Numbered from the stretch's first letter, positions 36,646 through 59,060 are shown. The stretch: DNA of 64,000 nt from Thermoanaerobaculia bacterium (GCA_036261885.1 DATAJY010000009.1:52814-116813); one strand, 5' to 3'. Notes: a model not told the origin generated them from the sequence alone. Numbers and translations: made by a program.

Positions 36646-36775
36646 GCGGGTCGTTGTCGGTTGTCGGGAGTCGGTTGTCGGGAGGCCACCGCCACCACCA
36701 CGTTTCCAGCGGAGCGGTTCTCCCGACTCCCGACTACTGACTACCGACTACCGACTTCCCGACTACACGCCCGCT
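36646..36775. repeat. GTCGG-type palindromic repeat (family 2), copy B
   Basis: gtcgttgtcggttgtcgggagtcggttgtcgggag ... ctcccgactcccgactactgactaccgactaccga. Confidence 0.8.
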
Positions 36776-37554
36776 TCGTCCCACTTCGTTACGATCTCTT
36801 CGATCAGCTTCCCGACTTTGTCGGTGACCTTGCGGTAGTACTCGTCGGCTTTCTTCTGGTCGAATTTCGGGTAGCCCTGGCCGGGCTGATAGAGGCCGAT
36901 CGATGACGGGAACGGCGACGCGCTCCACGTTCCGGTGACCGGATAGGCGGTGGCCAGCTTGTCGCTGTAGCGTTCGGGATGAACGAGCGTGCGATCGACG
37001 GCCTGCACGAACGCGGTCTCGTTCCAGCCGGCGTGGCCGCCGTCTTCACCGAACACTTCCTTCGTCACATCGGAGGCGAACGACCACCAGTTGATCACCA
37101 GCGTGCGCACGTGCTTCTCCGCGGAGACTTCGTTGGCGATCGCGGTGAGCACCGCGGTCTGCGGTCCGCCGTGTCCGTTGAGAATGATGATGTTGCGGAA
37201 GCCGTTCTTCGCCAGCCCTTCGAGCACCGCTTTCATGTATGGCCGGTATGCGGACTCGGGGATCGTGAACGCGCCGGGATACGCTTCCATCGAGCCGGTG
37301 ATCCCGTACGGCACGGCCGGCGCGATCATGGCGTTGAGCCGCGGCGCGAGCGTCTTCGCCATCGCCAGCGGTGCGGTGATGTCCGCGCCGTTGTTCGCGA
37401 CGCCGTGCGGCTCGAGCGTGCCGGTCGGCAGCAGCACCGTCCTGATCTTCGACGGCACCACCTCGCGAAACTCCATCCAGTTGATGCGCTCCATCTCGCG
37501 CTCCTGCGCGCCGAGGGAGAGAGCGAATGCGAGAAGAATCAGCAGGCGTTTCAT
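36763..37554 (-). CDS. creatininase (creatinine amidohydrolase) family protein, secreted
   Basis: signal MKRLLILLAFALSLGAQ; creatininase motifs TGTLEPHG and ILNGHGGP. Confidence 0.75.
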   Translation of the reverse strand: MKRLLILLAFALSLGAQEREMERINWMEFREVVPSKIRTVLLPTGTLEPHGVANNGADITAPLAMAKTLAPRLNAMIAPAVPYGITGSMEAYPGAFTIPESAYRPYMKAVLEGLAKNGFRNIIILNGHGGPQTAVLTAIANEVSAEKHVRTLVINWWSFASDVTKEVFGEDGGHAGWNETAFVQAVDRTLVHPERYSDKLATAYPVTGTWSASPFPSSIGLYQPGQGYPKFDQKKADEYYRKVTDKVGKLIEEIVTKWDEAGV

Positions 37555-37574: not shown

Positions 37575-40127
37575 TCAGGGGCTGACTCTCACTCCCAGTT
37601 CCTGCATCACCGGCGCGATCGGCACGACGATCGACAGGCTCTTGTTGTCCGACGAGACGAGCATGCCGATCAACTCGTTGCGCGCGTTCACCACCGGACC
37701 TCCGGCATCCCCTGAATCCGGAATGATGGACGTGAGGATCTGTCCATCCTTGCGCAGCTCGATCACCCGGCCGTTCGCGAGCGCGGAGCCGCGGCCGACG
37801 AGACGCACCTCTTCCCCGACGCGCACCGACGTCTGCACGCCGCGCAATGCGCCGATGCGCGGAACCTTTGCATCGAGCGTGGTCCCCTTCGCGAGCCGGA
37901 TCAATGCACCCGATTGATACGCGTCGGAGCCGACGCGCTCGACGATGCCGATGACGTCGCGCACCGTCCCTCCGTCACCGGGACCCGGCTGAAACACGCG
38001 CGCTCCTTTCTCCCCGCCGACGACGAACGGCAGCGTGAGCAGATAGCGCGTTCCGGCGGCGTCCTGCACGACGCAGCACGAAGAACCGGTGGCGCCGCCG
38101 CCGCCGACGCTCACTCCCGGCGTGACCGGACGGACGCGGCGGCGCACGCCGGGGCCGTTGTTCGCCGGCTCCGGAGGGGCGGCCCACGTCACCGGTCTGG
38201 CCGCGGCCGGCGGTTCGTACACGCTCAGATACGGATCGGCGATCTGGCGCGCGTTCTCGAGCTCCTTGATCTTCTTCTGCAGATCGGCGTTCGCCTTCTC
38301 CGCCGCCTCACGCGCCTCTTCGGTCTCGCGGATGAGCGCGGTCATCTGATCGACCGACGCCCAGGCGTTCTGCTCCGCGCGCTTGTTCGCTTCCGCGAGC
38401 TCTTTCTGATGTCGCGCATCGGCCAGCGCCTGGTCGCGCAGCTCGTTGTTCAGTTTCTTTTCGACGGCCGCTCGCTCGAGCAGCTGGGCGTTGTTCTTCT
38501 TCTGAATCATCCAGGCGCCGTACAGCACGACGATGAGCGCAATCGCCAGCGCCGTCGCGAACGTCTGCCCCACGCGCTTCATCCAGCGTGCGCGGCGGAT
38601 GAGCGAACGACTGGCGTCGACGAGTTGCAGCAGCGCGTCGCTGATCACCAGATCCTTCGCGGCATCGCTCCTCAACCAGTGCTCCGCTTCCTTCAACTGC
38701 TCTTCGTCGAGGAACCCGCTCTCCCGTCCGAAACGCGCCCACTCGTCGGCGAGCGATTCGAAGCGCTGCAACTCGAGCATCTCCGCTTTCTTGTGCTCGA
38801 CCCACGACACCAGCAGCGGCCAGTTGCGAATGAGCGCCTCGTGCGCGACCTCGACCTGCTGCTCGCCGGTGATGCGGACGAGCCGGTTCTCGGCGAGCCG
38901 CTCCACGACGCGCTTCACGCGCTCCGGGTCATCGCCGATCTGCAGGAGATCGCTCAGCAGCGCGCGGCTGCTCGTCACTTCCGCGCCCGCGGCCGGACGA
39001 ACCATGCGCAGCACGATGCGGCGCATCGTGTCGCGATCCTGTTGAATGAAGCTCTCGTACAACGCGGTGGCGGCGTTCGCCAGTGCCGCCCGTCCGCCGC
39101 CGAGCTTGCGATACGCGGCCAGCGTGATGCGGTTGTGCTCGCGCGTCTGCCACAACTTCCAGAGCGTGAACTGCAGCAGCGGCAACGCCGCCGGCTCGCC
39201 GAGAACGTCGCGCACGAGCGCGTCGACCACGCCGGATTCGAACTTCAGTCCGATCAGCTTGGCCGGCTCCTCGATGGCCTCGCGCAACTCCGCCGCGGTG
39301 AGCGGCGTGGCGCGCAGATCGCCCGCTTCGAACAGCGTCTGCAGCTCGCCGGTCGTGGCCAGGCGCGAGTCGTAGTCGCTGCGCATGGTCACGATCAGCA
39401 CATGCCCGTCGCGCGAATACGAGAGCAGCTCGTCGACGAAGGCCTGGCGTGAGGAGAGATCGTCGGTGAGCGTGAACAGCTCTTCGAACTGATCGATGGT
39501 GATGACGGTGGTCTGGCTTTTCTGCGGCTTCGCGCCGCCGTACGCGGCGGCGAGATTCTTCATCGGCTCGCTGCCCGGAACCATCGACGGCAGATAGCGC
39601 CACTGCGCGCTGCCTTCGATGGCGTTGGCCTTCAACGCCGGCAGCACACCGCCGAGCACGATCGACGATTTGCCACTGCCGGACGGCCCGAGGACGGCGA
39701 GAAAGCGGTGCTGGCGCAGCTTGTCGAGTGCGACGTGCACCGCCTGCCTGCGACCATAGAAGCGGCTGCTGTCCGACTCGTGAAACGAATTGAGACCGAC
39801 GTACGGACAGAGCGCATCATCGAGCGTCGGCGCGAGCGCGGGATCGAAATCGACGAGCGTCGGATCGTCCGCCACTTCGATCGACGCGCGATAGAGCGTC
39901 GTCACCCAATAGTCGATCAGTCCCTGTGCGGCGTCGCGCTGTTCCTCGACGTCGAGCAGCGCGCCGGTGCGCTGCGCCCGCTTCACGAAGTCGCGCACCT
40001 CGGGCTCGATGTCGCCGACGGTCGCGCCCTGCCGCTGCCGCGTCAGCAGCGACGTGTGCGTCGCGCGCAGATCGAAGATCGTCGGGAAGAAATCCTGCGG
40101 CTGCGAAATCGGAACGAGAGTGCTCAT
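37575..40127 (-). CDS. membrane-anchored nSTAND-type NTPase: N-terminal nSTAND1-like NTPase, one TM helix, coiled coil, C-terminal degenerate chymotrypsin-fold domain
   Basis: CPYVGLNSFHESDSSRFYGR hallmark, Walker A GPSGSGKSS, Walker B VLIVTMRSD; TM VGQTFATALAIALIVVLYGAWMI; ~90-aa coiled coil; C-terminus has GDAGGPVVN..ELIGMLVS (the Ser position of GDSGGP is Ala) and no histidine in the last ~250 aa. Confidence 0.75.
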   Translation of the reverse strand: MSTLVPISQPQDFFPTIFDLRATHTSLLTRQRQGATVGDIEPEVRDFVKRAQRTGALLDVEEQRDAAQGLIDYWVTTLYRASIEVADDPTLVDFDPALAPTLDDALCPYVGLNSFHESDSSRFYGRRQAVHVALDKLRQHRFLAVLGPSGSGKSSIVLGGVLPALKANAIEGSAQWRYLPSMVPGSEPMKNLAAAYGGAKPQKSQTTVITIDQFEELFTLTDDLSSRQAFVDELLSYSRDGHVLIVTMRSDYDSRLATTGELQTLFEAGDLRATPLTAAELREAIEEPAKLIGLKFESGVVDALVRDVLGEPAALPLLQFTLWKLWQTREHNRITLAAYRKLGGGRAALANAATALYESFIQQDRDTMRRIVLRMVRPAAGAEVTSSRALLSDLLQIGDDPERVKRVVERLAENRLVRITGEQQVEVAHEALIRNWPLLVSWVEHKKAEMLELQRFESLADEWARFGRESGFLDEEQLKEAEHWLRSDAAKDLVISDALLQLVDASRSLIRRARWMKRVGQTFATALAIALIVVLYGAWMIQKKNNAQLLERAAVEKKLNNELRDQALADARHQKELAEANKRAEQNAWASVDQMTALIRETEEAREAAEKANADLQKKIKELENARQIADPYLSVYEPPAAARPVTWAAPPEPANNGPGVRRRVRPVTPGVSVGGGGATGSSCCVVQDAAGTRYLLTLPFVVGGEKGARVFQPGPGDGGTVRDVIGIVERVGSDAYQSGALIRLAKGTTLDAKVPRIGALRGVQTSVRVGEEVRLVGRGSALANGRVIELRKDGQILTSIIPDSGDAGGPVVNARNELIGMLVSSDNKSLSIVVPIAPVMQELGVRVSP

Positions 40128-40152
40128 GAGGGGCCTGCTATGCCAATGCTTG

Positions 40153-41550
40153 CTATGCCAATGCTTGAACGATCGCGGCGAGTGGGTCTCCCGCTTTGCG
40201 GAGCTCCACGCACTGCTGATTGAGGTTCGAGTCGACGGCGAAGAAGCGCGTCACCGCACGTTGCCGGTAGCGGCGGAAGTGCCGGGCCATCTTGTTCGCA
40301 TCGTTCTCGGCGATGGCCTGATCGAGCGAGTCCGCCTCCTTGCCGAGGCTCTTCGCCCATTCCGCGGTGGCCGCGGTGAGCAGCGCCACCTGCTTCTTCA
40401 GCTCCGGCCAGGCGTCGATCAGCTCGAAGCTGTCGGCTTCGAGATTCGTGTCGACGCGGCGCATGGCCACATCGACGTCCTGCCATGCGGCGTGACTGCG
40501 CACCAGCTCTTCGAGCGTGTCGTCGAGACACTCCATCTCGTCGAGCGCGTGTTCGAGCTTGGTCAGCTTCGCCGCATCGAGATTCGCCTCTTTCGCTTTG
40601 CGGCAGACCAGCGCGACCGCGTCGATCACCGCATCGAGCTCGAGCTCCGATGCCGCATCGGAGAGACGGGCATCGATGCGCGGCGGCTCGGAGGCGAGCA
40701 CGCGGTCGAGCAGCGCGGCCGCACGTTTCACCACCGCGCCGTCGCGCGCCTCGATCCCCTGCCCCAGCGACTGCAGGGCGCGGTCGAGCGTGGCGATCCA
40801 CGTCAGCTTGAAGTTGTCGAAGACGTCCGAGTTGTTCAGCTGCTTCAGGCGGTCGATCGACTGCTGCAGCGTGTCGGAGTACTGCAGCATCGCGTCGACG
40901 GCGAGATCGTCATCAGCGAGGCGCGGCAGATCGCGCACGATCGGATCGTGGCAGTGCAGCTGGATGTGGTGCAGTTGATCGTGCACTTCCTTGAAGCTCG
41001 CCAGACGATCGATGCGTCCGGAAATGCTTTCGAAGCGGAAGCGGAACTCGAGCAGCGCGTCGCGCGCCGGCCCGCTGGCGATGAGATCGGCGACGGTGCG
41101 CAGACCTTCGTTCACGACGTCGATCTTCACCGCCGCATCGGACGCCGCGGGCGTGCGTTTCAAGGCCCGGATGAGCCGCTCCATCTGCTGGGCGATGCGC
41201 GTGTCGTCGAGGAAATCGAGGTACGAGCGGATGGAAAGCCACTTCGGCGGCTCGCACTTCTGCCGCAGGATCGGGATGAGCTTCCCCTTCGAGCCGGTGG
41301 GATCGGTCTGCACCGAGAGCAGCCCTTCGAAGCGCGTCCATTCGCTCTGCACCCACGCGTCGGTGAGCACGACCACCGTTCGCTGCGCGTTCTCGACGGC
41401 GCTGGTCATGTTCTCGATCGACGTTGCGCCTCCGGCAAAGTCGTCGGAGTCGATGAGCACATCGATGCCGTGCGCCGTGAGCGTCCGCACCAGCACGCCG
41501 TCTACCCACTCCTTGTCTTTGTGGCTGTAGCTGATGAAGACGTCGTGCAT
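40153..41550 (-). CDS. TIR domain protein with ~320-aa helical C-terminal region
   Basis: N-terminus MHDVFISYSHKDKEWV...; conserved SxW..E (SEWTRFE) with candidate catalytic Glu; 25 nt upstream of the STAND gene. Confidence 0.8.
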   Translation of the reverse strand: MHDVFISYSHKDKEWVDGVLVRTLTAHGIDVLIDSDDFAGGATSIENMTSAVENAQRTVVVLTDAWVQSEWTRFEGLLSVQTDPTGSKGKLIPILRQKCEPPKWLSIRSYLDFLDDTRIAQQMERLIRALKRTPAASDAAVKIDVVNEGLRTVADLIASGPARDALLEFRFRFESISGRIDRLASFKEVHDQLHHIQLHCHDPIVRDLPRLADDDLAVDAMLQYSDTLQQSIDRLKQLNNSDVFDNFKLTWIATLDRALQSLGQGIEARDGAVVKRAAALLDRVLASEPPRIDARLSDAASELELDAVIDAVALVCRKAKEANLDAAKLTKLEHALDEMECLDDTLEELVRSHAAWQDVDVAMRRVDTNLEADSFELIDAWPELKKQVALLTAATAEWAKSLGKEADSLDQAIAENDANKMARHFRRYRQRAVTRFFAVDSNLNQQCVELRKAGDPLAAIVQALA

Positions 41551-44427: not shown

Positions 44428-45160
44428 GTTGAATTGAAAATTGAAAATTGAAAATTGAAATCACTCGTCGCCAGCGTGACTCGTCGCGCTGGCGATTTTG
44501 CTTTTGAGGGACAACGCGTCACTCGTGCATCCGCCCGCGTGTCATCCCGAGCGGAGCGCGTAGCGCGGAGTCGAAGGGACCCCCTTCCCGACAACGCGGT
44601 ACTCGTGCTTTCGCAGGGGATCCCTCCACTCGCTCCGCTCGGTCGGGATGACACATGCGCGCCCACGTGTCATCCCGAGCGGAGCGCGCAGCGCGGAGTC
44701 GAGGGACCCCCTTCCGACAACGCGGTACTCGTGCATTCGCGGGGGATCCCTCCACTCGCTCCGCTCGGTCGGGATGACACAGGCGCCCCGCGTGTCATCC
44801 CGAGCGGAGCGCGTAGCGCGGAGTCAGGGACCCCCTTCCGACAACGCGTCACTCGTGCTTCCGCGGGGGATCCCTCCACTCGCTCCGCTCGGTCGGGATG
44901 ACACAGGCGCGCTTCCGACAACGCGTCACTCGTGCATCCGCCCGCGTGTCATCCCGAGCGGAGCGCGCAGCGCGGAGTCGAAGGGATCCCCTTCCGACAA
45001 CGCGGTACTCGTGCATCAGCAGGGGATCCCTCCACTCGCTGCGCTCGGTCGGGATGACACATGCGCGCTCGCGTGTCATCCCGAGCGGAGCGCGTAGCGC
45101 GGAGTCGAAGGGCATCGCGCTGGCGAAACCTGATTTCAATTTTCAATTTTCAATTTCCCG
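44428..45160. repeat. ~730-bp composite repeat element: (TTGAAAA)n terminal inverted repeats enclosing about six tandem family-1 hairpin units
   Basis: left end gaattgaaaattgaaaattgaaaattgaaatc, right end gatttcaattttcaattttcaatttc (exact reverse complement); interior alternates the gtgtcatcccgagcggagcg.. arm, a ~30-nt cttccgacaacgcggtactcgtgc core and the inverted arm. Confidence 0.85.
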
Positions 45161-45172
45161 CCGCCTCAATCC

Positions 45173-47800
<2,628 letters not shown>

Positions 47801-54395: not shown

Positions 54396-57300
54396 TGCTC
54401 AGCGCCATCGCCAGATTCGAGCTCAAGTACCACCTGCGGGCTCCGCTCTTCTACATCCTCACGCTCGTCTTCTTCCTGCTCACGTTTGCGGCGGTGACCA
54501 CCGACGGCGTGCAGCTTGGCGGCGCGGTCGGCAACGTCAATCGCAACTCGCCGTACGTGATCATGCAGTTCCTGCTGGTGATGACGATCTTCGGCGTTCT
54601 CACCACCACCGCGTTCGTCGCCAACGCCGTCCATCGCGATTTCGAGATGGGCACCGACTCGCTGTTCTTCAGCGCGCCGATCCGGAAATTCGACTATCTG
54701 ATCGGGCGCTTCCTCGGCTCTTTCAGCGTGGCCGTGCTGGTCTACTTCGGCGTGGTCGGCGCGATCATGCTCGGCAGCATCATGCCGTGGATCGAGAAGG
54801 AACGCCTCGGCGCCTTCGACCTCTGGCCCTACGCCTACACGATGCTGGTCATGGTCATCCCGAACCTGCTGCTGGCCGGCGCGATCTTCTTCGCCGTCGC
54901 CGCGATCACGCGCAGCCTCATGGCCACCTACTCGTCCGCGGTCGCGTTCATCGTCGCCGCCGCCGTGTCGAACAACATCCTCGAATCGGCGCTCGACAAC
55001 GAGACCATCGTGAGCCTCGCCGATCCGTTCGGCTTCGGCGCGTTCGGCGTCGCCACGCGCTACTGGACCGTCTTCCAGAAAAACACGCAGGTCCTCCCGC
55101 TGGAAGGCGTGTTCCTCTGGAACCGCATCCTCTGGACCGTCATCTCGCTGGCCTGTCTCGCACTCGCGCTGAAGCTCTTCCACTTCCGCATCGGCGTGCA
55201 GAACGCGAAACGGAAACGGGTCGAGGCGAGCGACGAGGTCGTCTCGCGCATCCCGCTCGCGCTGCCGAAAGTCTCGCAGACGTTCGGCGGCGGCGCGGCA
55301 TGGAAGCAGTTCTTCGCCAGCGTCAGCCTGCAGGCCAGCACGATCTTCAAGAGCATCCCCTTCGCGATCATGCTGCTCCTCGGCGTCCTGAACATCTGGG
55401 GCAACTCGGTCGGGCAGGAAAACCGCTTCGGCACCAGCGTCTATCCGACCACCGGGCTGATGGTCGAGACGATCTTCGGCGCGTTCGCGATCTTCGCCCT
55501 GCTCATCGCCGCGTTCTACGCGGGCGACATCGTCTGGCGCGAGCGCAATCTCAAGCTGCACGAAGTCAGCGATGCGATGCCGATTCCGACGTGGGCGCAG
55601 TGGGGCGCGAAACTGACGGCGCTCGTCGGCGTGCTCATCACCACGCTCGCCGCCGGCATCGCCACCGGCATGATCCTGCAGCTCGCGAAGGGCTACACGA
55701 AGCTCGAGCCGATGGTCTACGTGAAAGGCATCTTCCTCGAGCTCGGCGTCTTCGTGGTGCTGATCGCGGCCCTCGCGTTCATCATGCAGGTGCTGTTCAA
55801 CCAGAAGTTCGTCGGCTTCCTCGGCGTACTGGTCTACTTCATTCTCAACCGCGCGCTGCCGGCCCTCGATCTCGAGCACCGCCTCTATCGCTTCGCCTCC
55901 ACGCCGCCGGCCACCTGGTCGGACATGAACGGCTTCGGCCACTTCGTCACGCCGATGGTTTCGTTCAATGCCTACTGGACGCTCTTCTGCATCGTGATGC
56001 TCGTGTTCTGCCACCTCTTGTGGGTGCGTGGAACGGAGAGCGGCCTCAAGTCGCGGTTCAGCGTCGCGCGGCAGCGCTTCAGTAAACCGGTCTTCGCGAT
56101 GTTCGTCCTCTCGCTGGTCGCGTTCATCTCGACCGGCTGCTACATCTACTACAACACCAACGTCGTGAACTCGTACCGCACGACGAAGGAAGGCGAACAG
56201 CTGCAGGCCGAGGCCGAAAAGAAGTACAAAAAGTACGAGACGCTGCTGCAGCCGAAGATCACGGCGGTGCAGGCGAACGTCGACATCGTGCCGGAGCAGC
56301 GCAAGGTTTCGATCGACGGAACCTATGCACTGAAAAACAAGGGCACGCAGCCGATTCCGGCCATCCACATCAATTTCAATCCGGAAGCGCTGACCACGTT
56401 CGAAGTCGAATTGCCGAACGCGAAGCTCGAGACCAGCGACCGCGATCACGGTTATCTCATCTACAAGCTCGCCCAGCCGCTGCAGCCGGGAGAGGAATTG
56501 ACGATGCGCTACAAGACCGCGTTCGAAGCAAAAGGCTTCGTGAACGGCGCATCGAACACGCAGGTCGTCGAGAACGGGACCTTCTTCAACTCGAACGGCT
56601 ACTTCCCCCGCCTCGGCTACAACTCCGGCGTCGAGCTGCAGGATCGCAACAAACGCCGCAAATACGGCCTCAAACCGATTCAGCGCATGAAGAAGCCCGA
56701 CGACCTCCAGGCCCGCATGGACAACGGTCTCGGCGACTCCGACTGGCTGAGCCTCGATACCACCGTCTCCACCTCGGCCGATCAGATCGCGATCGCACCC
56801 GGATATCTGCAGCGCGAGTGGACGCAGAACGGACGGCGCTATTTTCATTACAAGACCACCTCGCCCATTCTCGGCTTCTGGTCGTATCTCTCCGCGCGCT
56901 ACAGCGTGAAACGCGGCCAATGGAAGGATGCGCACGGCAACGTCGTGCCGATCGAGATCTATTACGACGCCAAACACGGCTACAACGTCGATCGGATGAT
57001 CTACGCGACCCGGAAGTCGCTCGACTACTTCACGAAAAACTTCTCGCCTTATCAGCACAAGCAGGTGCGCATCCTCGAGTTCCCCCGCTACGCGAGCTTC
57101 GCGCAATCGTTCCCGAACACGATTCCGTTTTCTGAATCGATCGGCTTCGTGGCCGATCTGCGCGACAAGGAGAGCATCGACTACGTCTTCTACGTGACCG
57201 CGCATGAAGTGGCGCACCAGTGGTGGGCGCATCAGGTCATTGGCGGCAACGTGCAGGGCTCGACCATGATCGTCGAGACCATGGCCCAGTACTCCGCGCT

Positions 57301-57961
57301 GATGGTGATGGAGAAAGAGTACGGCCGGAACAAGATGCAGAAGTTCCTCCGCTACGAGCTCGATCGTTATCTCAGTGGCCGCGGCGGGGAGCTCGTCGCC
57401 GAGATGCCGCTGATGCTCGTCGAGAATCAGCAGTACATCCACTATCGCAAAGGCAGCCTCGTGATGTACGCCCTGCGCGATTACATCGGCGAAGAGGCGG
57501 TCAACCGCGCGCTGGCGAAATTCATCCGCGACAAGGCGTTCGCCGAACCGCCGTACACCACCGCCACCGAGCTCGTGAAGTACTTCCGCGCCGAAGCGCC
57601 GCCGCAATATCAGGAGACGATCACGGACCTCTTCGAACGCATCGTTCTCTATGACCTCCAGGCGCGCGAAGTGAAATCGGTCAAACGCGCCGACGGCAAA
57701 TACGTCGTGACCATGACCGTCGCCTCCACGAAACTGCGCGCCGACGACAAAGGCGAAGAAAAGCCGGTCCCCATCAACGACCTCATCGACATCGGCGTCC
57801 TCGGCGAAAAGGACAAGCTCCTGGCCGTCGAGAAACACCGCATCACCAAACCGGTCGAAACGTTCGAGATGGTCGTCAGCGAGAAACCGCAGAAAGCAGG
57901 CATCGACCCAATGAACAAACTCATCGACCGAAACCCCAAAGACAACACGAAATCGCTGTAA
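54395..57961 (+). CDS. fusion protein: ABC-2-type permease (N-terminal ~600 aa, multi-TM) + M1 family aminopeptidase-N-like domain
   Basis: ATGA-coupled to the ATPase gene; hydrophobic N-terminal half; C-terminal gluzincin motif HEVAHQWW...x18...E (HExxH+E). Confidence 0.8.
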   Translation: MLSAIARFELKYHLRAPLFYILTLVFFLLTFAAVTTDGVQLGGAVGNVNRNSPYVIMQFLLVMTIFGVLTTTAFVANAVHRDFEMGTDSLFFSAPIRKFDYLIGRFLGSFSVAVLVYFGVVGAIMLGSIMPWIEKERLGAFDLWPYAYTMLVMVIPNLLLAGAIFFAVAAITRSLMATYSSAVAFIVAAAVSNNILESALDNETIVSLADPFGFGAFGVATRYWTVFQKNTQVLPLEGVFLWNRILWTVISLACLALALKLFHFRIGVQNAKRKRVEASDEVVSRIPLALPKVSQTFGGGAAWKQFFASVSLQASTIFKSIPFAIMLLLGVLNIWGNSVGQENRFGTSVYPTTGLMVETIFGAFAIFALLIAAFYAGDIVWRERNLKLHEVSDAMPIPTWAQWGAKLTALVGVLITTLAAGIATGMILQLAKGYTKLEPMVYVKGIFLELGVFVVLIAALAFIMQVLFNQKFVGFLGVLVYFILNRALPALDLEHRLYRFASTPPATWSDMNGFGHFVTPMVSFNAYWTLFCIVMLVFCHLLWVRGTESGLKSRFSVARQRFSKPVFAMFVLSLVAFISTGCYIYYNTNVVNSYRTTKEGEQLQAEAEKKYKKYETLLQPKITAVQANVDIVPEQRKVSIDGTYALKNKGTQPIPAIHINFNPEALTTFEVELPNAKLETSDRDHGYLIYKLAQPLQPGEELTMRYKTAFEAKGFVNGASNTQVVENGTFFNSNGYFPRLGYNSGVELQDRNKRRKYGLKPIQRMKKPDDLQARMDNGLGDSDWLSLDTTVSTSADQIAIAPGYLQREWTQNGRRYFHYKTTSPILGFWSYLSARYSVKRGQWKDAHGNVVPIEIYYDAKHGYNVDRMIYATRKSLDYFTKNFSPYQHKQVRILEFPRYASFAQSFPNTIPFSESIGFVADLRDKESIDYVFYVTAHEVAHQWWAHQVIGGNVQGSTMIVETMAQYSALMVMEKEYGRNKMQKFLRYELDRYLSGRGGELVAEMPLMLVENQQYIHYRKGSLVMYALRDYIGEEAVNRALAKFIRDKAFAEPPYTTATELVKYFRAEAPPQYQETITDLFERIVLYDLQAREVKSVKRADGKYVVTMTVASTKLRADDKGEEKPVPINDLIDIGVLGEKDKLLAVEKHRITKPVETFEMVVSEKPQKAGIDPMNKLIDRNPKDNTKSL

Positions 57962-57966
57962 GCGAG

Positions 57967-57996
57967 AAACGGCGGGCCTGAAGGCCCGCCGTTTTC
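57967..57996 (+). terminator. rho-independent terminator
   Basis: aaacggcgggcc-tgaa-ggcccgccgtttt, then cattgtt. Confidence 0.8.
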
Positions 57997-58380
57997 ATTG
58001 TTCGACCAGAATATCAGCTTCACGCTGTAGTTAGCCCGACCGGAGCAGAACGCCAGAAAGCCAGAAGGCTAGCGTCCGCGTTCGTGGCCAGTTGTCGCGC
58101 CGCGACGCAGCCACGTCCACGCGCGACTCGCCTTGTCCGGGGTGAAAGCGTCGACAGGCGTGCCCACGCCTTCGTAGCGACCACGGGCTACGTCCAGCCT
58201 CGGATTTCAAAGCCGACACCGGCTTGGCCAAGTTTTGGAATGATTCGCCGGAAAGGCCGTGCGGCGGCTCCGGCGTGAGTCACGCTTGTTGCTCGCAAAT
58301 TCATCTCAAGTCACGAACGGCAGGGCACGTTCGATATGAGATACCCGCCGTCGTCGCTCGGCAGCGGTAGAATCGTCGCT

Positions 58381-58569
58381 ATGGAAACGGCGAAAGAGCA
58401 GGTTCAGCAGATCCTCGACCAGTTGCCGCAAGATGCGTCGCTTGAGGACATCCAGTACCACATCTACGTGCGGCAGAAGATCGAGCAAGGACTTGCCGAT
58501 GTTGAAACGGGCCGTGTCGTGAGTCACGCCGAGGTACAGCAACGGCTGGCGAAATGGCTTACGAAGTAA
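58381..58569 (+). CDS. type II antitoxin (RelB/ParD-like addiction module antidote)
   Basis: 62-aa protein overlapping the downstream toxin gene by 16 nt; lower GC than its surroundings. Confidence 0.55.
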   Translation: METAKEQVQQILDQLPQDASLEDIQYHIYVRQKIEQGLADVETGRVVSHAEVQQRLAKWLTK

Positions 58570-58862
58570 CGTGGTCAGAATCTGCGGTCGCAAGTCTCGT
58601 GGACGCAATCGAATATATTGCGCGGGACTCCCCGAGCTACGCCGCGGCATTTGCGGTGCGAGCTGAGCGCGCAGCGGCATCGCTTGAAACATTCCCTGAA
58701 CGAGGCCGACGCGTTCCGGAGTTCAATGACCTCGACGTTCGCGAACTGCCGGTCGCGAGCCACCGTCTCATCTACCGCGTTGGGCGTGGACGAGTGTTTC
58801 TACTGGCGCTTGTTCATCAGTCGCGAAATCTCGCATCTCTTATCGACGAAGCTACGCAATAG
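58554..58862 (+). CDS. type II toxin, RelE/ParE family
   Basis: 102 aa; ParE/RelE-like sequence (..RRVPEFNDLDVRELPVASHRLIYRVGRGRVFLLALVHQSR). Confidence 0.7.
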   Translation: MAYEVTWSESAVASLVDAIEYIARDSPSYAAAFAVRAERAAASLETFPERGRRVPEFNDLDVRELPVASHRLIYRVGRGRVFLLALVHQSRNLASLIDEATQ

Positions 58863-59060
58863 CCAGCAGCGGGCTAATTTTCTGCTGAAACCGTCACGGC
58901 CCGCTTTCGGCCCTGCTGAAGCGCCTCGTTCTTGCCGGCCTCACGGCGTCACGCTCAGCCTTCGCCACTCGACACGGCCATCCGGTTTAGCGGAAGAACG
59001 TTAGGCAGCGTCGGCGATACGACGCTACTATTACGTTCGGGCCGAAGGATTACCGAAACG

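What the first reader, a model, noticed from the sequence alone, without database searches (positions are those of the whole stretch)
37575..41550. Two-gene TIR + membrane-anchored nSTAND NTPase module with a degenerate protease-like extracytoplasmic domain: candidate uncharacterised NTP-dependent defence/conflict system
Two co-directional minus-strand genes are separated by only 25 nt. The upstream product (465 aa) starts with a bacterial TIR domain (MHDVFISYSHKD..., SEWTRFE with the Glu expected for NADase-type TIRs) followed by ~320 aa of helical sequence. The downstream product (850 aa) has the N-terminal CPYVGLNSFHESDSSRFYGR signature of nSTAND1-type STAND NTPases. It also has Walker A GPSGSGKSS and Walker B VLIVTMRSD, a helical arm, a single predicted TM helix, a ~90-aa coiled coil and a Pro-rich linker. 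Its C-terminal ~200 aa resemble the chymotrypsin-fold second barrel (GDAGGPVVN...ELIGMLVS). The catalytic Ser position is Ala and there is no His anywhere in the last ~250 aa, so it is a pseudo-protease. Because it lies after the TM helix, it is probably extracytoplasmic and could act as a ligand sensor rather than an enzyme. TIR effectors coupled to STAND NTPases are typical of anti-phage/conflict systems. The split arrangement here (TIR on a separate protein; membrane-spanning STAND with an inactive trypsin-like sensor) is not one I can place in a characterised family. A PilZ-domain gene sits just upstream.
Basis: partly seen in the sequence, partly recalled or inferred. Interest (0 to 1): 0.9.

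Follow-up and report, generated by a model that had tools for sequence, protein, structure and literature searches.

The report
Membrane-spanning STAND receptor with TIR adaptor
Two tightly linked genes in an acidobacterial genome encode a TIR "death-domain" protein carried on a previously unnamed helical adaptor and a membrane-spanning STAND ATPase whose outward-facing sensor is a dead protease; together they look like an untested bacterial immune or conflict receptor that senses signals from outside the cytoplasm.

Summary
Two intact minus-strand genes 25 nt apart encode a 465-aa TIR protein and an 850-aa nSTAND1 NTPase (Pfam E = 1.6e-23 and 3.7e-100). The STAND has one TM helix. Its C-terminal domain is a complete chymotrypsin fold (AF2 pLDDT 95; Foldseek TM ≈ 0.75) with all three catalytic residues lost (F701/G740/A808).

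First, the ~335-aa helical tail of the TIR protein is a large family with no Pfam, PADLOC or PDB match (1,741 clusters at 50% identity). It is always C-terminal and carries swappable heads: TIR, CHAT/caspase, EAD1/7/9/10, kinase, HEPN. Second, in 32 of 32 loci examined it lies directly upstream of a STAND carrying a specific ~100-aa N-terminal domain. That STAND is usually followed by a TM helix and a variable sensor (WD40, TPR, PD40 or dead protease).

The PilZ neighbour is not conserved.

The best reading is a two-gene, outside-in STAND conflict module with a TIR effector. Function is inferred, not shown. The locus is syntenic, not in a defence island, but evolves far faster than its neighbours. 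I rate it a new variant of a known kind.

The parts
40153..41550 (-). Gene 1: TIR-HelMod protein, 465 aa (including stop codon 40153-40155)
   Evidence: ORF; 100% identical to an NCBI Thermoanaerobaculia protein
41173..41550 (-). TIR domain, residues 1-126. The candidate catalytic Glu E75 lies at 41326-41328.
   Evidence: Pfam TIR_2 E = 1.6e-23; E75 invariant in 39 sequences; aligns with the S-x-W-C-x-x-E motif of solved TIRs
40156..41172 (-). HelMod: a ~339-aa all-helical C-terminal module (10 helices) and the conserved adaptor of the family. Conserved motifs are K-x-x-H-D-x-L-H, H-x-x-W-Q and F...D..L..QC.
40128..40152 (-). 25-nt intergenic spacer. In most relatives the two genes overlap by 4 nt.
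37575..40127 (-). Gene 2: NTD-nSTAND1-TM-stalk-pseudoprotease protein, 850 aa (including stop codon 37575-37577)
   Evidence: ORF; 100% identical to an NCBI record
39807..40127 (-). N-terminal domain (NTD), residues 1-107. It has no Pfam match and is shared with the WD40, TPR and PD40 sensor relatives. It is the inferred docking site for HelMod.
   Evidence: The natural control in L005 lacks both NTD and HelMod.
38718..39806 (-). nSTAND1 NTPase module, residues 108-470. Walker A is at 39663-39689, Walker B at 39480-39506 and the sensor-1 T-x-R motif at 39375-39398.
   Evidence: Pfam PF20703 E = 3.7e-100; motif invariance; coordinates checked
38577..38717 (-). Juxtamembrane helical arm, residues 471-517, ending in the basic cluster RRARWMKR
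38499..38576 (-). Single transmembrane helix, about residues 518-543
   Evidence: KD19 maximum 2.3; TM present in nearly all relatives; N-in orientation p = 1.4e-17
38148..38498 (-). Extracytoplasmic Ala/Glu/Lys-rich helical stalk plus Pro-rich linker, residues 544-660. This is the fastest-evolving segment.
   Evidence: composition; 23-63% identity; coiled coil not formally tested
37578..38147 (-). Dead chymotrypsin-fold domain, residues 661-850. His57 equivalent is F701, Asp102 equivalent is G740 and Ser195 equivalent is A808. C684-C685 is an invariant vicinal pair.
   Evidence: AF2 pLDDT 95.3; Foldseek hits to SGPB, alpha-lytic protease and NAL1, E about 1e-10, TM 0.75; triad survey; CC conserved in 81 of 86

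Best explanation
**What it is.** This is a two-gene, STAND-NTPase-based conflict (most likely anti-invader or abortive-infection) module that signals from outside to inside the cell.

**Gene 2: the receptor.** It encodes a single-pass inner-membrane protein. The N-terminal docking domain and the nSTAND1 ATPase are cytoplasmic. After one TM helix and a helical stalk, a catalytically dead chymotrypsin-fold domain faces the periplasm. That domain has lost His, Asp and Ser but keeps the GD-x-G oxyanion-loop region, so it probably still binds a peptide or protein ligand.

**Gene 1: the output.** It encodes a TIR domain carried on a ~335-aa helical adaptor, called HelMod here. HelMod is the constant partner of this STAND subfamily.

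**Proposed sequence of events.**
1. A ligand binds the dead protease.
2. The signal crosses the membrane.
3. The STAND exchanges nucleotide and oligomerises.
4. The HelMod-tethered TIR domains cluster into active NADase assemblies.
5. NAD+ is depleted, or a TIR-made nucleotide signal is produced, and growth stops or the cell dies.

**Shown here.**
- The domain identities and folds.
- The dead catalytic triad.
- The membrane topology, statistically.
- Strict gene pairing.
- Swapping of effector heads.
- Fast evolution of the pair.

**Inferred.**
- The NTD-HelMod contact.
- Ligand sensing by the dead protease.
- TIR NADase activity.
- The defence role.
For: **Domains.** TIR_2 and nSTAND1 score far above the Pfam cut-offs. 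Walker A, Walker B and sensor-1 are invariant in 117 relatives, so the ATPase is under selection. TIR E75 is invariant.

**Sensor.** The AF2 model (pLDDT 95.3) matches S1 proteases over both barrels. The Asp is absent in 86 of 86 relatives, and all three triad residues are lost in 42 of 86, including the query clade. The GD-x-G motif and the Cys-Cys pair are conserved.

**Topology.** There is one TM helix. The N-terminal flank carries more Lys+Arg in 96 of 113 relatives, p = 1.4e-17.

**Pairing.** A HelMod gene lies immediately upstream, on the same strand, often with a 4-nt overlap, in 21 of 21 loci found from the module side and 11 of 11 found from the STAND side. In L005 a second nSTAND1 that lacks the NTD is paired with a TIR protein that lacks HelMod.

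**Conflict-system logic.** HelMod heads are TIR, CHAT, EAD1/7/9/10, kinase and HEPN. In L007 an EAD1-HelMod gene sits beside an EAD1-Trypsin_2 effector gene. This matches the EAD-coupling principle of Kaur et al. 2020 (PMC7159879).

**Evolutionary rate.** At the same syntenic site the pair is 44-70% identical where BipA, creatininase and LOG are 81-90% identical. The extracytoplasmic part diverges most.
Against: - There is no experimental evidence for any member.
- The locus is not in a recognisable defence island. In Thermoanaerobaculia it sits at a conserved position between BipA and creatininase/LOG, which looks like vertical inheritance of a resident function.
- Nothing in PADLOC matches the STAND or HelMod.
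- The closest solved TIR sequences are scaffolding TLR-type TIRs, which also carry the Glu, so NADase activity is not guaranteed.
The two domains are not homologous, so the homotypic EAD precedent does not apply directly.
- Topology rests on hydropathy and charge bias, not on a dedicated predictor.
Confidence: 0.6

Rival explanations
1. The pair is a resident envelope-surveillance or regulated-dormancy pathway, not an anti-phage system. The dead protease would sense a self-derived periplasmic cue such as misfolded or cleaved envelope proteins or peptidoglycan peptides. The STAND-TIR output would then tune NAD+ metabolism or growth as part of normal physiology.
For: The position is syntenic with housekeeping genes across Thermoanaerobaculia at 49-80% identity. 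No flanking defence or mobile genes appear in the window. No copies occur in viral contigs. The same window encodes another receptor with N-in/C-out topology, a Ser/Thr kinase with a TM helix and a TolB-like propeller.
Against: The pair evolves 3-5 times faster than its syntenic neighbours. The HelMod heads in relatives (CHAT, HEPN, EADs, TIR) are the effector set typical of conflict systems. Distant pairs sit in unrelated contexts, some near mobile elements such as L032 next to Prim-Pol/D5_N and L030 next to a DUF772 transposase-like gene.
Confidence: 0.2
2. The architecture is the same, but the TIR is a signal generator (cADPR-isomer or ADPR-conjugate second messenger) that activates an unlinked effector, as in Thoeris. 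It would not be a terminal NAD+-depleting effector.
For: PADLOC ThsB and NCBIfam Thoeris type III ThcB4 profiles give weak domain-level hits. Many bacterial TIRs make signalling nucleotides (established knowledge).
Against: No ThsA-like, SLOG, Macro or SAVED receptor gene is conserved beside the pair in any of the 32 loci. In relatives the TIR is replaced by directly lethal heads (CHAT, HEPN), which argues that the head is the terminal effector.
Confidence: 0.12
3. HelMod is the real, cytoplasmic sensor or regulator, for example a metal- or ligand-binding helical bundle using its conserved His/Asp/Cys residues. The extracytoplasmic dead protease would serve only as a membrane-localising or oligomerising anchor, or as a decoy.
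For: HelMod has near-invariant polar residues (K-x-x-H-D-x-L-H, H-x-x-W-Q, C) across 148 diverse members. Its fold resembles the 4-helix-bundle ligand-binding domains of chemoreceptors and sensor kinases.
Confidence: 0.06
4. The C-terminal domain is still a working peptidase that uses non-canonical residues, such as the invariant Cys-Cys pair, or Ser/His in some relatives. The system would then act by extracytoplasmic proteolysis.
For: Twelve of 86 relatives keep a nearby His plus the Ser. The Cys-Cys pair is conserved in 81 of 86.
Against: The query has F/G/A at the triad positions and no His anywhere in the domain. The Asp is missing in 86 of 86. By spacing from the His57-equivalent F701, the Cys-Cys pair falls near the position of Cys42, the disulfide cysteine of S1 proteases, not at the nucleophile (position inferred from spacing).
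Confidence: 0.02

Closest known systems
nSTAND1-centred NTP-dependent conflict systems (Kaur, Burroughs, Iyer and Aravind; eLife 2020 PMC7159879 and eLife 2021 PMC8195603)
   Same: Both have the nSTAND1 NTPase core, effector sets made of TIR, caspase, trypsin and EADs, variable C-terminal sensors, and occurrence in Chloroflexota and Cyanobacteria. The EAD-coupling logic is seen directly in relative L007.
   Different: In the published descriptions the EAD or effector is fused to the N-terminus of the NTPase, and the sensors are FGS or repeat domains in the cytoplasm. Here the effector sits on a separate protein built on an unnamed 335-aa helical adaptor. The STAND has its own non-EAD N-terminal domain, it crosses the membrane, and its sensor is a dead protease.
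Antiviral STAND (Avs) and bacterial NACHT pattern-recognition receptors (e.g. Nature 2026, PMC13581612)
   Same: Both follow the STAND NTPase logic of sensor, then oligomerisation, then effector activation. TIR and protease effectors and WD40 or TPR sensors occur in both.
   Different: Avs and bNACHT proteins are single cytoplasmic polypeptides that sense phage proteins inside the cell. No PADLOC Avs or NACHT profile matches this protein. This one is bipartite and its sensor is extracytoplasmic.
Animal Toll-like receptors (ectodomain-TM-TIR) with adaptor TIRs
   Same: Both combine an outward-facing sensor, a single TM helix and a cytoplasmic TIR output reached through an adaptor. The closest solved TIR sequences are Hydra TRR2 and TLR1/2/6.
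   Different: TLRs have no NTPase. Their TIR is fused to the receptor and acts as a scaffold. The resemblance is one of topology and logic, not of descent.
Receptor-type Ser/Thr kinases and anti-sigma factors with N-in/C-out topology (PknB-like); serine-protease homologues used as binding modules (e.g. haptoglobin, HGF, insect SPHs)
   Same: Both have a large cytoplasmic signalling domain, a single TM helix and an extracytoplasmic binding domain. In both, a chymotrypsin fold that has lost catalysis is reused for binding.
   Different: The cytoplasmic engine differs (STAND ATPase here). No bacterial dead S1 domain has been described as a STAND sensor in the literature searched.
EACC1 two-gene membrane-associated system (Kaur 2020; Evans et al. 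2025 preprint)
   Same: Both are two-gene, membrane-associated modules with a constant component plus variable partners. nSTAND1 is reported to occur sometimes in EACC1 systems.
   Different: EACC1 is a small single-TM pore-forming domain activated by a caspase. HelMod is a soluble 335-aa helical bundle with no TM segment.

Membership tests
TIR domain (Pfam TIR_2 / TIR) | Profile match above the gathering score | tested here: met
   TIR_2 83.9 bits against cut-off 28; TIR 34.9 bits against 21.3
TIR domain (NADase-type) | Conserved catalytic Glu in the S-x-W-x-x-x-E motif | tested here: met
   E75 is invariant in 39 sequences. It aligns to the same motif in solved TIRs. The motif is necessary but not sufficient.
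TIR domain (NADase-type) | NAD+ hydrolase or cyclase activity | not testable with these tools
   Needs a biochemical assay
nSTAND1 (Pfam PF20703) | Profile match above the gathering score over the full model | tested here: met
   336.6 bits against cut-off 27.1; model positions 1-378 of 379
nSTAND1 / STAND NTPases | Intact Walker A, Walker B and sensor-1 Arg | tested here: met
   G147-S155, D212/E215/E216 and R249 are invariant in 117 sequences
nSTAND1 conflict systems as described (Kaur et al. 2021) | EAD or effector fused N-terminally to the NTPase | tested here: not met
   Residues 1-107 match no Pfam EAD or effector family in 21 members. The effector is on a separate protein.
nSTAND1 conflict systems as described (Kaur et al. 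2021) | C-terminal FGS/lectin-type (or repeat) sensor | tested here: not met
   The C-terminus is a TM helix plus a dead chymotrypsin fold. Relatives have WD40, TPR or PD40 sensors.
S1 / chymotrypsin-fold serine peptidases (Trypsin_2) | Double beta-barrel fold | tested here: met
   Foldseek E about 1e-10, TM 0.73-0.81 to SGPB, alpha-lytic protease and NAL1
S1 / chymotrypsin-fold serine peptidases (Trypsin_2) | Pfam match above the gathering score | tested here: not met
   23.2 bits against cut-off 27.6
S1 / chymotrypsin-fold serine peptidases (Trypsin_2) | His-Asp-Ser catalytic triad | tested here: not met
   F701, G740 and A808 occupy the triad positions and the domain contains no His. It is a pseudo-enzyme.
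Known or candidate anti-phage systems in PADLOC-DB 2.0 (Avs, bNACHT, Thoeris, bSEFIR, PDC) | Full-length profile match of the core proteins | tested here: not met
   The STAND gives only P-loop-level hits with E >= 5e-4. HelMod gives none. The TIR protein hits bSEFIR at 1.4e-18, but only over its residues 3-206 against profile positions 40-257 of 412, and hits ThsB only at domain level. No ThsA is present.
EACC1 two-gene system | [quoted passage not shown] | tested here: not met
   The 5' protein has no hydrophobic segment above threshold. The definition is from PMC7159879.
EAD-coupled effector recruitment (Kaur 2020) | The same EAD on a core protein and on a separate effector | tested here: inconclusive
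   Not present in this locus, where the TIR is fused directly. It is present in relative L007, which has EAD1-HelMod plus EAD1-Trypsin_2. EAD1/7/9/10 heads occur elsewhere in the family.
HelMod + NTD-nSTAND1 two-gene module (defined here) | HelMod gene immediately upstream of, and co-directional with, a STAND carrying the NTD | tested here: met
   32 of 32 loci; also the window itself

The most novel reading that the evidence does not exclude
HelMod plus NTD-nSTAND1 defines a large, unnamed class of bacterial "outside-in" NLR-like immune receptors. These would be membrane-spanning STAND ATPases that detect extracytoplasmic cues through interchangeable ectodomains. Candidate cues are phage tail or ejection proteins, competitor-delivered toxins, or protease inhibitors. 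In Thermoanaerobaculia the ectodomain would be an integrated dead-protease decoy. Effectors such as TIR, caspase or HEPN would be activated through a new helical adaptor fold. The result would combine TLR-like topology with an NLR engine.
Probability: 0.3. Interest if true: 0.85.

Novelty: new variant of a known kind. Interest (0 to 1): 0.66.

Why it matters
Characterised prokaryotic STAND/NLR-like immune receptors sense their triggers in the cytoplasm. A STAND that crosses the membrane with its sensor outside would show that bacteria can couple periplasmic or surface recognition to an NLR-type switch and a TIR output. That would allow a response before or during genome entry, which is conceptually closer to Toll-like receptors.

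The work also isolates a large adaptor family (HelMod; 1,741 clusters at 50% identity) with no Pfam, PADLOC or PDB counterpart. It pairs strictly with one STAND subfamily and carries the whole repertoire of conflict-system effectors. This gives a concrete, testable handle on how separately encoded effectors are recruited to STAND hubs.

The dead chymotrypsin-fold ectodomain would be a rare bacterial example of a pseudo-protease reused as a receptor.

Tried and rejected
- **EACC1 identity for the helical module: rejected.** EACC1 is a single-TM domain.
- **Homotypic (EAD-like) relation between the STAND NTD and HelMod: rejected.** hhalign probability is 0.2%.
- **PilZ gene as a third component: rejected.** It is present only in the closest relatives (L001, L002) and absent from L003-L008.
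- **Creatininase gene as a component: rejected.** It lies 20 nt downstream and is co-directional, but it is conserved only where the whole neighbourhood is syntenic and is absent in L006-L008.
- **Sequence searches of HelMod and the STAND against the PDB:** nothing.
- **Foldseek against afdb50:** the library was unavailable.
- **Broad alignment A5 for a genome scan:** too divergent to give search patterns. A2 was used instead.
- **Profile search with the pseudo-protease domain for other receptor architectures:** returned only 3 hits and missed the family itself, so it was uninformative.
- **Promoter and terminator scan:** no signal above shuffles.
- **Viral contigs:** no relatives.
- **Long plus-strand ORFs overlapping the genes** (for example 37914-39452): high-GC artefacts with no homology support. 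They were not pursued.

Full report
**1. Observation**

The window carries two intact, co-directional minus-strand ORFs, 40153..41550 (465 aa) and 37575..40127 (850 aa). They are separated by 25 nt. Both products are 100% identical to hypothetical proteins of a Thermoanaerobaculia (Acidobacteriota) MAG. GC content in the region (0.65-0.67) does not differ from the rest of the window.

**2. Domain anatomy**

*Gene 1.*
- Pfam TIR_2 covers residues 4-126 (E = 1.6e-23).
- The S-E-W-T-R-F-E75 motif matches the S-x-W-C-x-x-E motif of solved TIRs. E75 is invariant in 39 family members.
- Residues ~127-465 match nothing in Pfam, for the query or for any of the 39 members. They also match nothing in PADLOC and nothing in the PDB by sequence.
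- With a 13-sequence alignment, AF2 gives a confident all-helical model of ten helices (pLDDT 87, pTM 0.81).

*Gene 2.*
- Residues 1-107 form a conserved domain with no Pfam match (NTD).
- Residues 108-470 are nSTAND1 (E = 3.7e-100).
- Walker A (G147-S155), Walker B (V208-E216, with D212, E215 and E216) and a sensor-1-type T247-x-R249 are invariant in 117 relatives.
- One hydrophobic helix lies at about residues 518-543.
- It is followed by an Ala/Glu/Lys-rich stalk, a Pro-rich linker and a 190-aa domain.
- AF2 models that domain with pLDDT 95.3 and pTM 0.91. Foldseek aligns it over both β-barrels to *Streptomyces griseus* proteases, α-lytic protease and rice NAL1 (E ≈ 1e-10, TM ≈ 0.75).
- The His57, Asp102 and Ser195 equivalents are F701, G740 and A808. 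The domain contains no His at all.
- Pfam Trypsin_2 alone is below its cut-off (23.2 bits against 27.6), so the fold call rests on the structure model.

**3. Topology**

Across 113 relatives with the TM helix, the 15 residues on the N-terminal side carry more Lys+Arg in 96 cases. The means are 5.6 against 3.1, the net charges are +3.8 against +0.65, and Wilcoxon p = 1.4e-17. The protein has no signal peptide and has an ATP-dependent domain at its N-terminus. Together these points indicate N-in/C-out, with the dead protease outside the cytoplasm. This is a statistical inference, not a measurement.

**4. The pseudo-protease is a family trait**

About 90 full-length homologues share the nSTAND1-TM-protease-fold layout. 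They come mostly from Thermoanaerobaculia. Among the 86 that could be scored:
- the Asp is absent in 86 of 86;
- a nearby His plus the Ser survive in only 12 of 86;
- all three catalytic residues are gone in 42 of 86, including the query's clade.

By contrast, the GD-x-G loop, a G-x-G-S motif and a vicinal Cys-Cys pair (C684-C685) are conserved. The Cys-Cys pair is present in 81 of 86. By its spacing from the His57-equivalent F701, the pair falls near the position of Cys42, a disulfide cysteine of S1 proteases; this is inferred from spacing, not from a residue-level alignment.

So the catalytic machinery has decayed while the cleft-forming scaffold is retained, as expected for a binding module.

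**5. Gene pairing and the wider family**

*From the STAND side.* Relatives at 80, 53, 49, 44, 39 and 38% identity all have a HelMod gene immediately upstream. Many pairs overlap by 4 nt. Two of these loci (L006, L008) lie in unrelated genomic contexts.

*From the module side.* A scan of one genome per species returned 21 loci. They come from Thermoanaerobaculia and from filamentous Chloroflexota (Roseiflexus, Kouleothrix), plus one MAG labelled Roseobacter. All 21 have the STAND (NTD plus nSTAND1) directly downstream.

*Other sensor types.* Three more STAND relatives, with WD40, TPR and PD40/Tricorn sensors, also have HelMod upstream. The total is 32 of 32.

*A natural control.* L005 carries a second nSTAND1-WD40 gene that lacks the NTD. 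Its TIR partner lacks HelMod.

*Chloroflexota versions.* These are CHAT(caspase)-HelMod plus NTD-nSTAND1-coil-TM-coil-WD40. The membrane-spanning design is therefore general, and only the ectodomain differs.

*Size of the family.* An exhaustive HMM search of 1.84 billion representatives finds HelMod in 1,741 clusters with E ≤ 1e-3, and in 680 with E ≤ 1e-30. It is always C-terminal, behind heads of 0-570 aa.

*Heads.* Pfam assigns the heads in 86 representatives as follows:

| Head | Representatives |
|---|---|
| TIR_2 | 21 |
| CHAT | 15 |
| EAD1 | 9 |
| EAD7 | 7 |
| EAD10 | 5 |
| EAD9 | 2 |
| Pkinase, HEPN_Swt1, BTAD, DUF4062 | 1 each |

Nostocaceae carry EAD-headed members. In L007 an EAD1-HelMod gene is accompanied by an EAD1-Trypsin_2 effector gene. 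This is the EAD-coupling logic of Kaur et al. 2020 (PMC7159879).

**6. Evolutionary behaviour**

In Thermoanaerobaculia the pair sits at a conserved site: BipA … pair - creatininase - LOG - SH3. At that site the neighbours are far more conserved than the pair. The table gives percent identity to the window's proteins, as ranges over the three syntenic relatives L001, L003 and L005.

| Protein or segment | Identity range (%) |
|---|---|
| BipA | 89-97 |
| Creatininase | 81-93 |
| LOG | 81-84 |
| TIR domain | 62-88 |
| HelMod | 49-87 |
| nSTAND1 | 61-85 |
| Dead protease | 44-83 |
| Stalk | 23-63 |

The system is resident but fast-evolving, and it is fastest outside the membrane. It is not in an obvious defence island and no copies occur in viral contigs. 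Some distant members lie near mobile-element genes (L030, L032).

**7. Mechanism (inferred)**

The head of the HelMod protein is interchangeable among effectors and EADs. The C-terminal part of the STAND is interchangeable among sensor-type domains. HelMod and the NTD-nSTAND1 core are constant and always adjacent. The simplest model has these steps:
1. The ectodomain binds a ligand.
2. The signal passes through the stalk and TM helix.
3. The STAND exchanges nucleotide and oligomerises.
4. HelMod, docked on the NTD, brings the TIR domains together.
5. TIR NADase activity follows.

The NTD and HelMod are not homologous (hhalign probability 0.2%). Any contact between them would therefore be heterotypic, unlike EAD-EAD pairing.

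**8. Comparison with known systems**

- **nSTAND1** was defined by Kaur et al. 2021 (PMC8195603) for proteins with N-terminally fused EADs or effectors and C-terminal FGS domains. It was noted to occur occasionally in EACC1 systems.
- **EACC1** is a single-TM pore-former and is not HelMod.
- **The 2026 survey of prokaryotic STANDs** (PMC13581612) lists TPR, WD40 and FGE sensors and cytoplasmic phage-protein recognition. It does not describe membrane-spanning STANDs or a separate helical adaptor.
- **A DGR study** (PMC10907252) predicted a periplasmic location for one NACHT/C-type-lectin target, so extracytoplasmic sensing by STANDs has a hinted precedent.
- **PADLOC-DB 2.0** has no model for the STAND or for HelMod. 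The bSEFIR hit of the TIR protein is partial.

Within the literature and libraries available here, the bipartite HelMod + NTD-nSTAND1-TM-sensor module and its dead-protease ectodomain are undescribed. The parts and the general logic are known.

**9. Verdict**

- I rate it a new variant of a known kind (STAND-based NTP-dependent conflict systems).
- It has two notable features: an extracytoplasmic pseudo-protease sensor on a membrane-spanning STAND, and a large unnamed adaptor family.
- The function as defence or abortive infection is plausible but untested. A resident envelope-surveillance role is the main rival.
- Interest is 0.66.

Noticed in passing
window 44430-45156: The intergenic region between BipA and the Ser/Thr-kinase gene holds an array of about five ~125-nt repeats. 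Each contains a palindrome (CGGTCGGGATGACAC...GTGTCATCCCGAGCG). The whole array is bracketed by inverted AATTGAAAATTGAAAATTGAAA arms (22 nt, 100% complementary). It looks like a REP- or MITE-like element cluster.
   Followed up: partly
window 45173-47800 (-): An 875-aa Ser/Thr protein kinase is followed by a hydrophobic segment and a long TolB/PD40-like beta-propeller region. This gives a second receptor-type protein close to the pair with the same apparent N-in/C-out layout (sequence reading only).
   Followed up: no
window 36763-37554 (-): A creatininase-family gene (Pfam E = 3.8e-37) starts 20 nt downstream of the STAND stop on the same strand and may be co-transcribed. It stays adjacent wherever the neighbourhood is syntenic (L001-L005) but not in distant pairs. 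It is probably unrelated to the module.
   Followed up: partly
L005 1-3399 (same as L015), in a 5.03-Mb Acidobacteriota MAG contig: A second, different TIR (482 aa) + nSTAND1-WD40 (1,384 aa) pair lies on the other side of BipA from the HelMod pair. Its STAND lacks the NTD and its TIR protein has a different, uncharacterised ~350-aa tail. This suggests a parallel adaptor family.
   Followed up: partly
window about 56000-59000: GC content drops to 0.59-0.60 against about 0.65 elsewhere, with a shift in AT skew. This could be horizontally acquired DNA.
   Followed up: no
HelMod family (alignments A4 and A5): Near-invariant polar residues occur across 148 diverse members: K194, H197, D198, H201, H360, W363, Q364 and C453 in P0173 numbering. 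They hint at a ligand-, metal- or partner-binding site in the helical adaptor. Spatial clustering could not be checked because model coordinates are not exposed.
   Followed up: no
L032 5065-7635 and L030 1450-1779: Some distant HelMod-STAND pairs lie beside mobile-element genes (a Prim-Pol/D5_N primase and a DUF772 transposase-like gene). This differs from the syntenic Thermoanaerobaculia copies.
   Followed up: no
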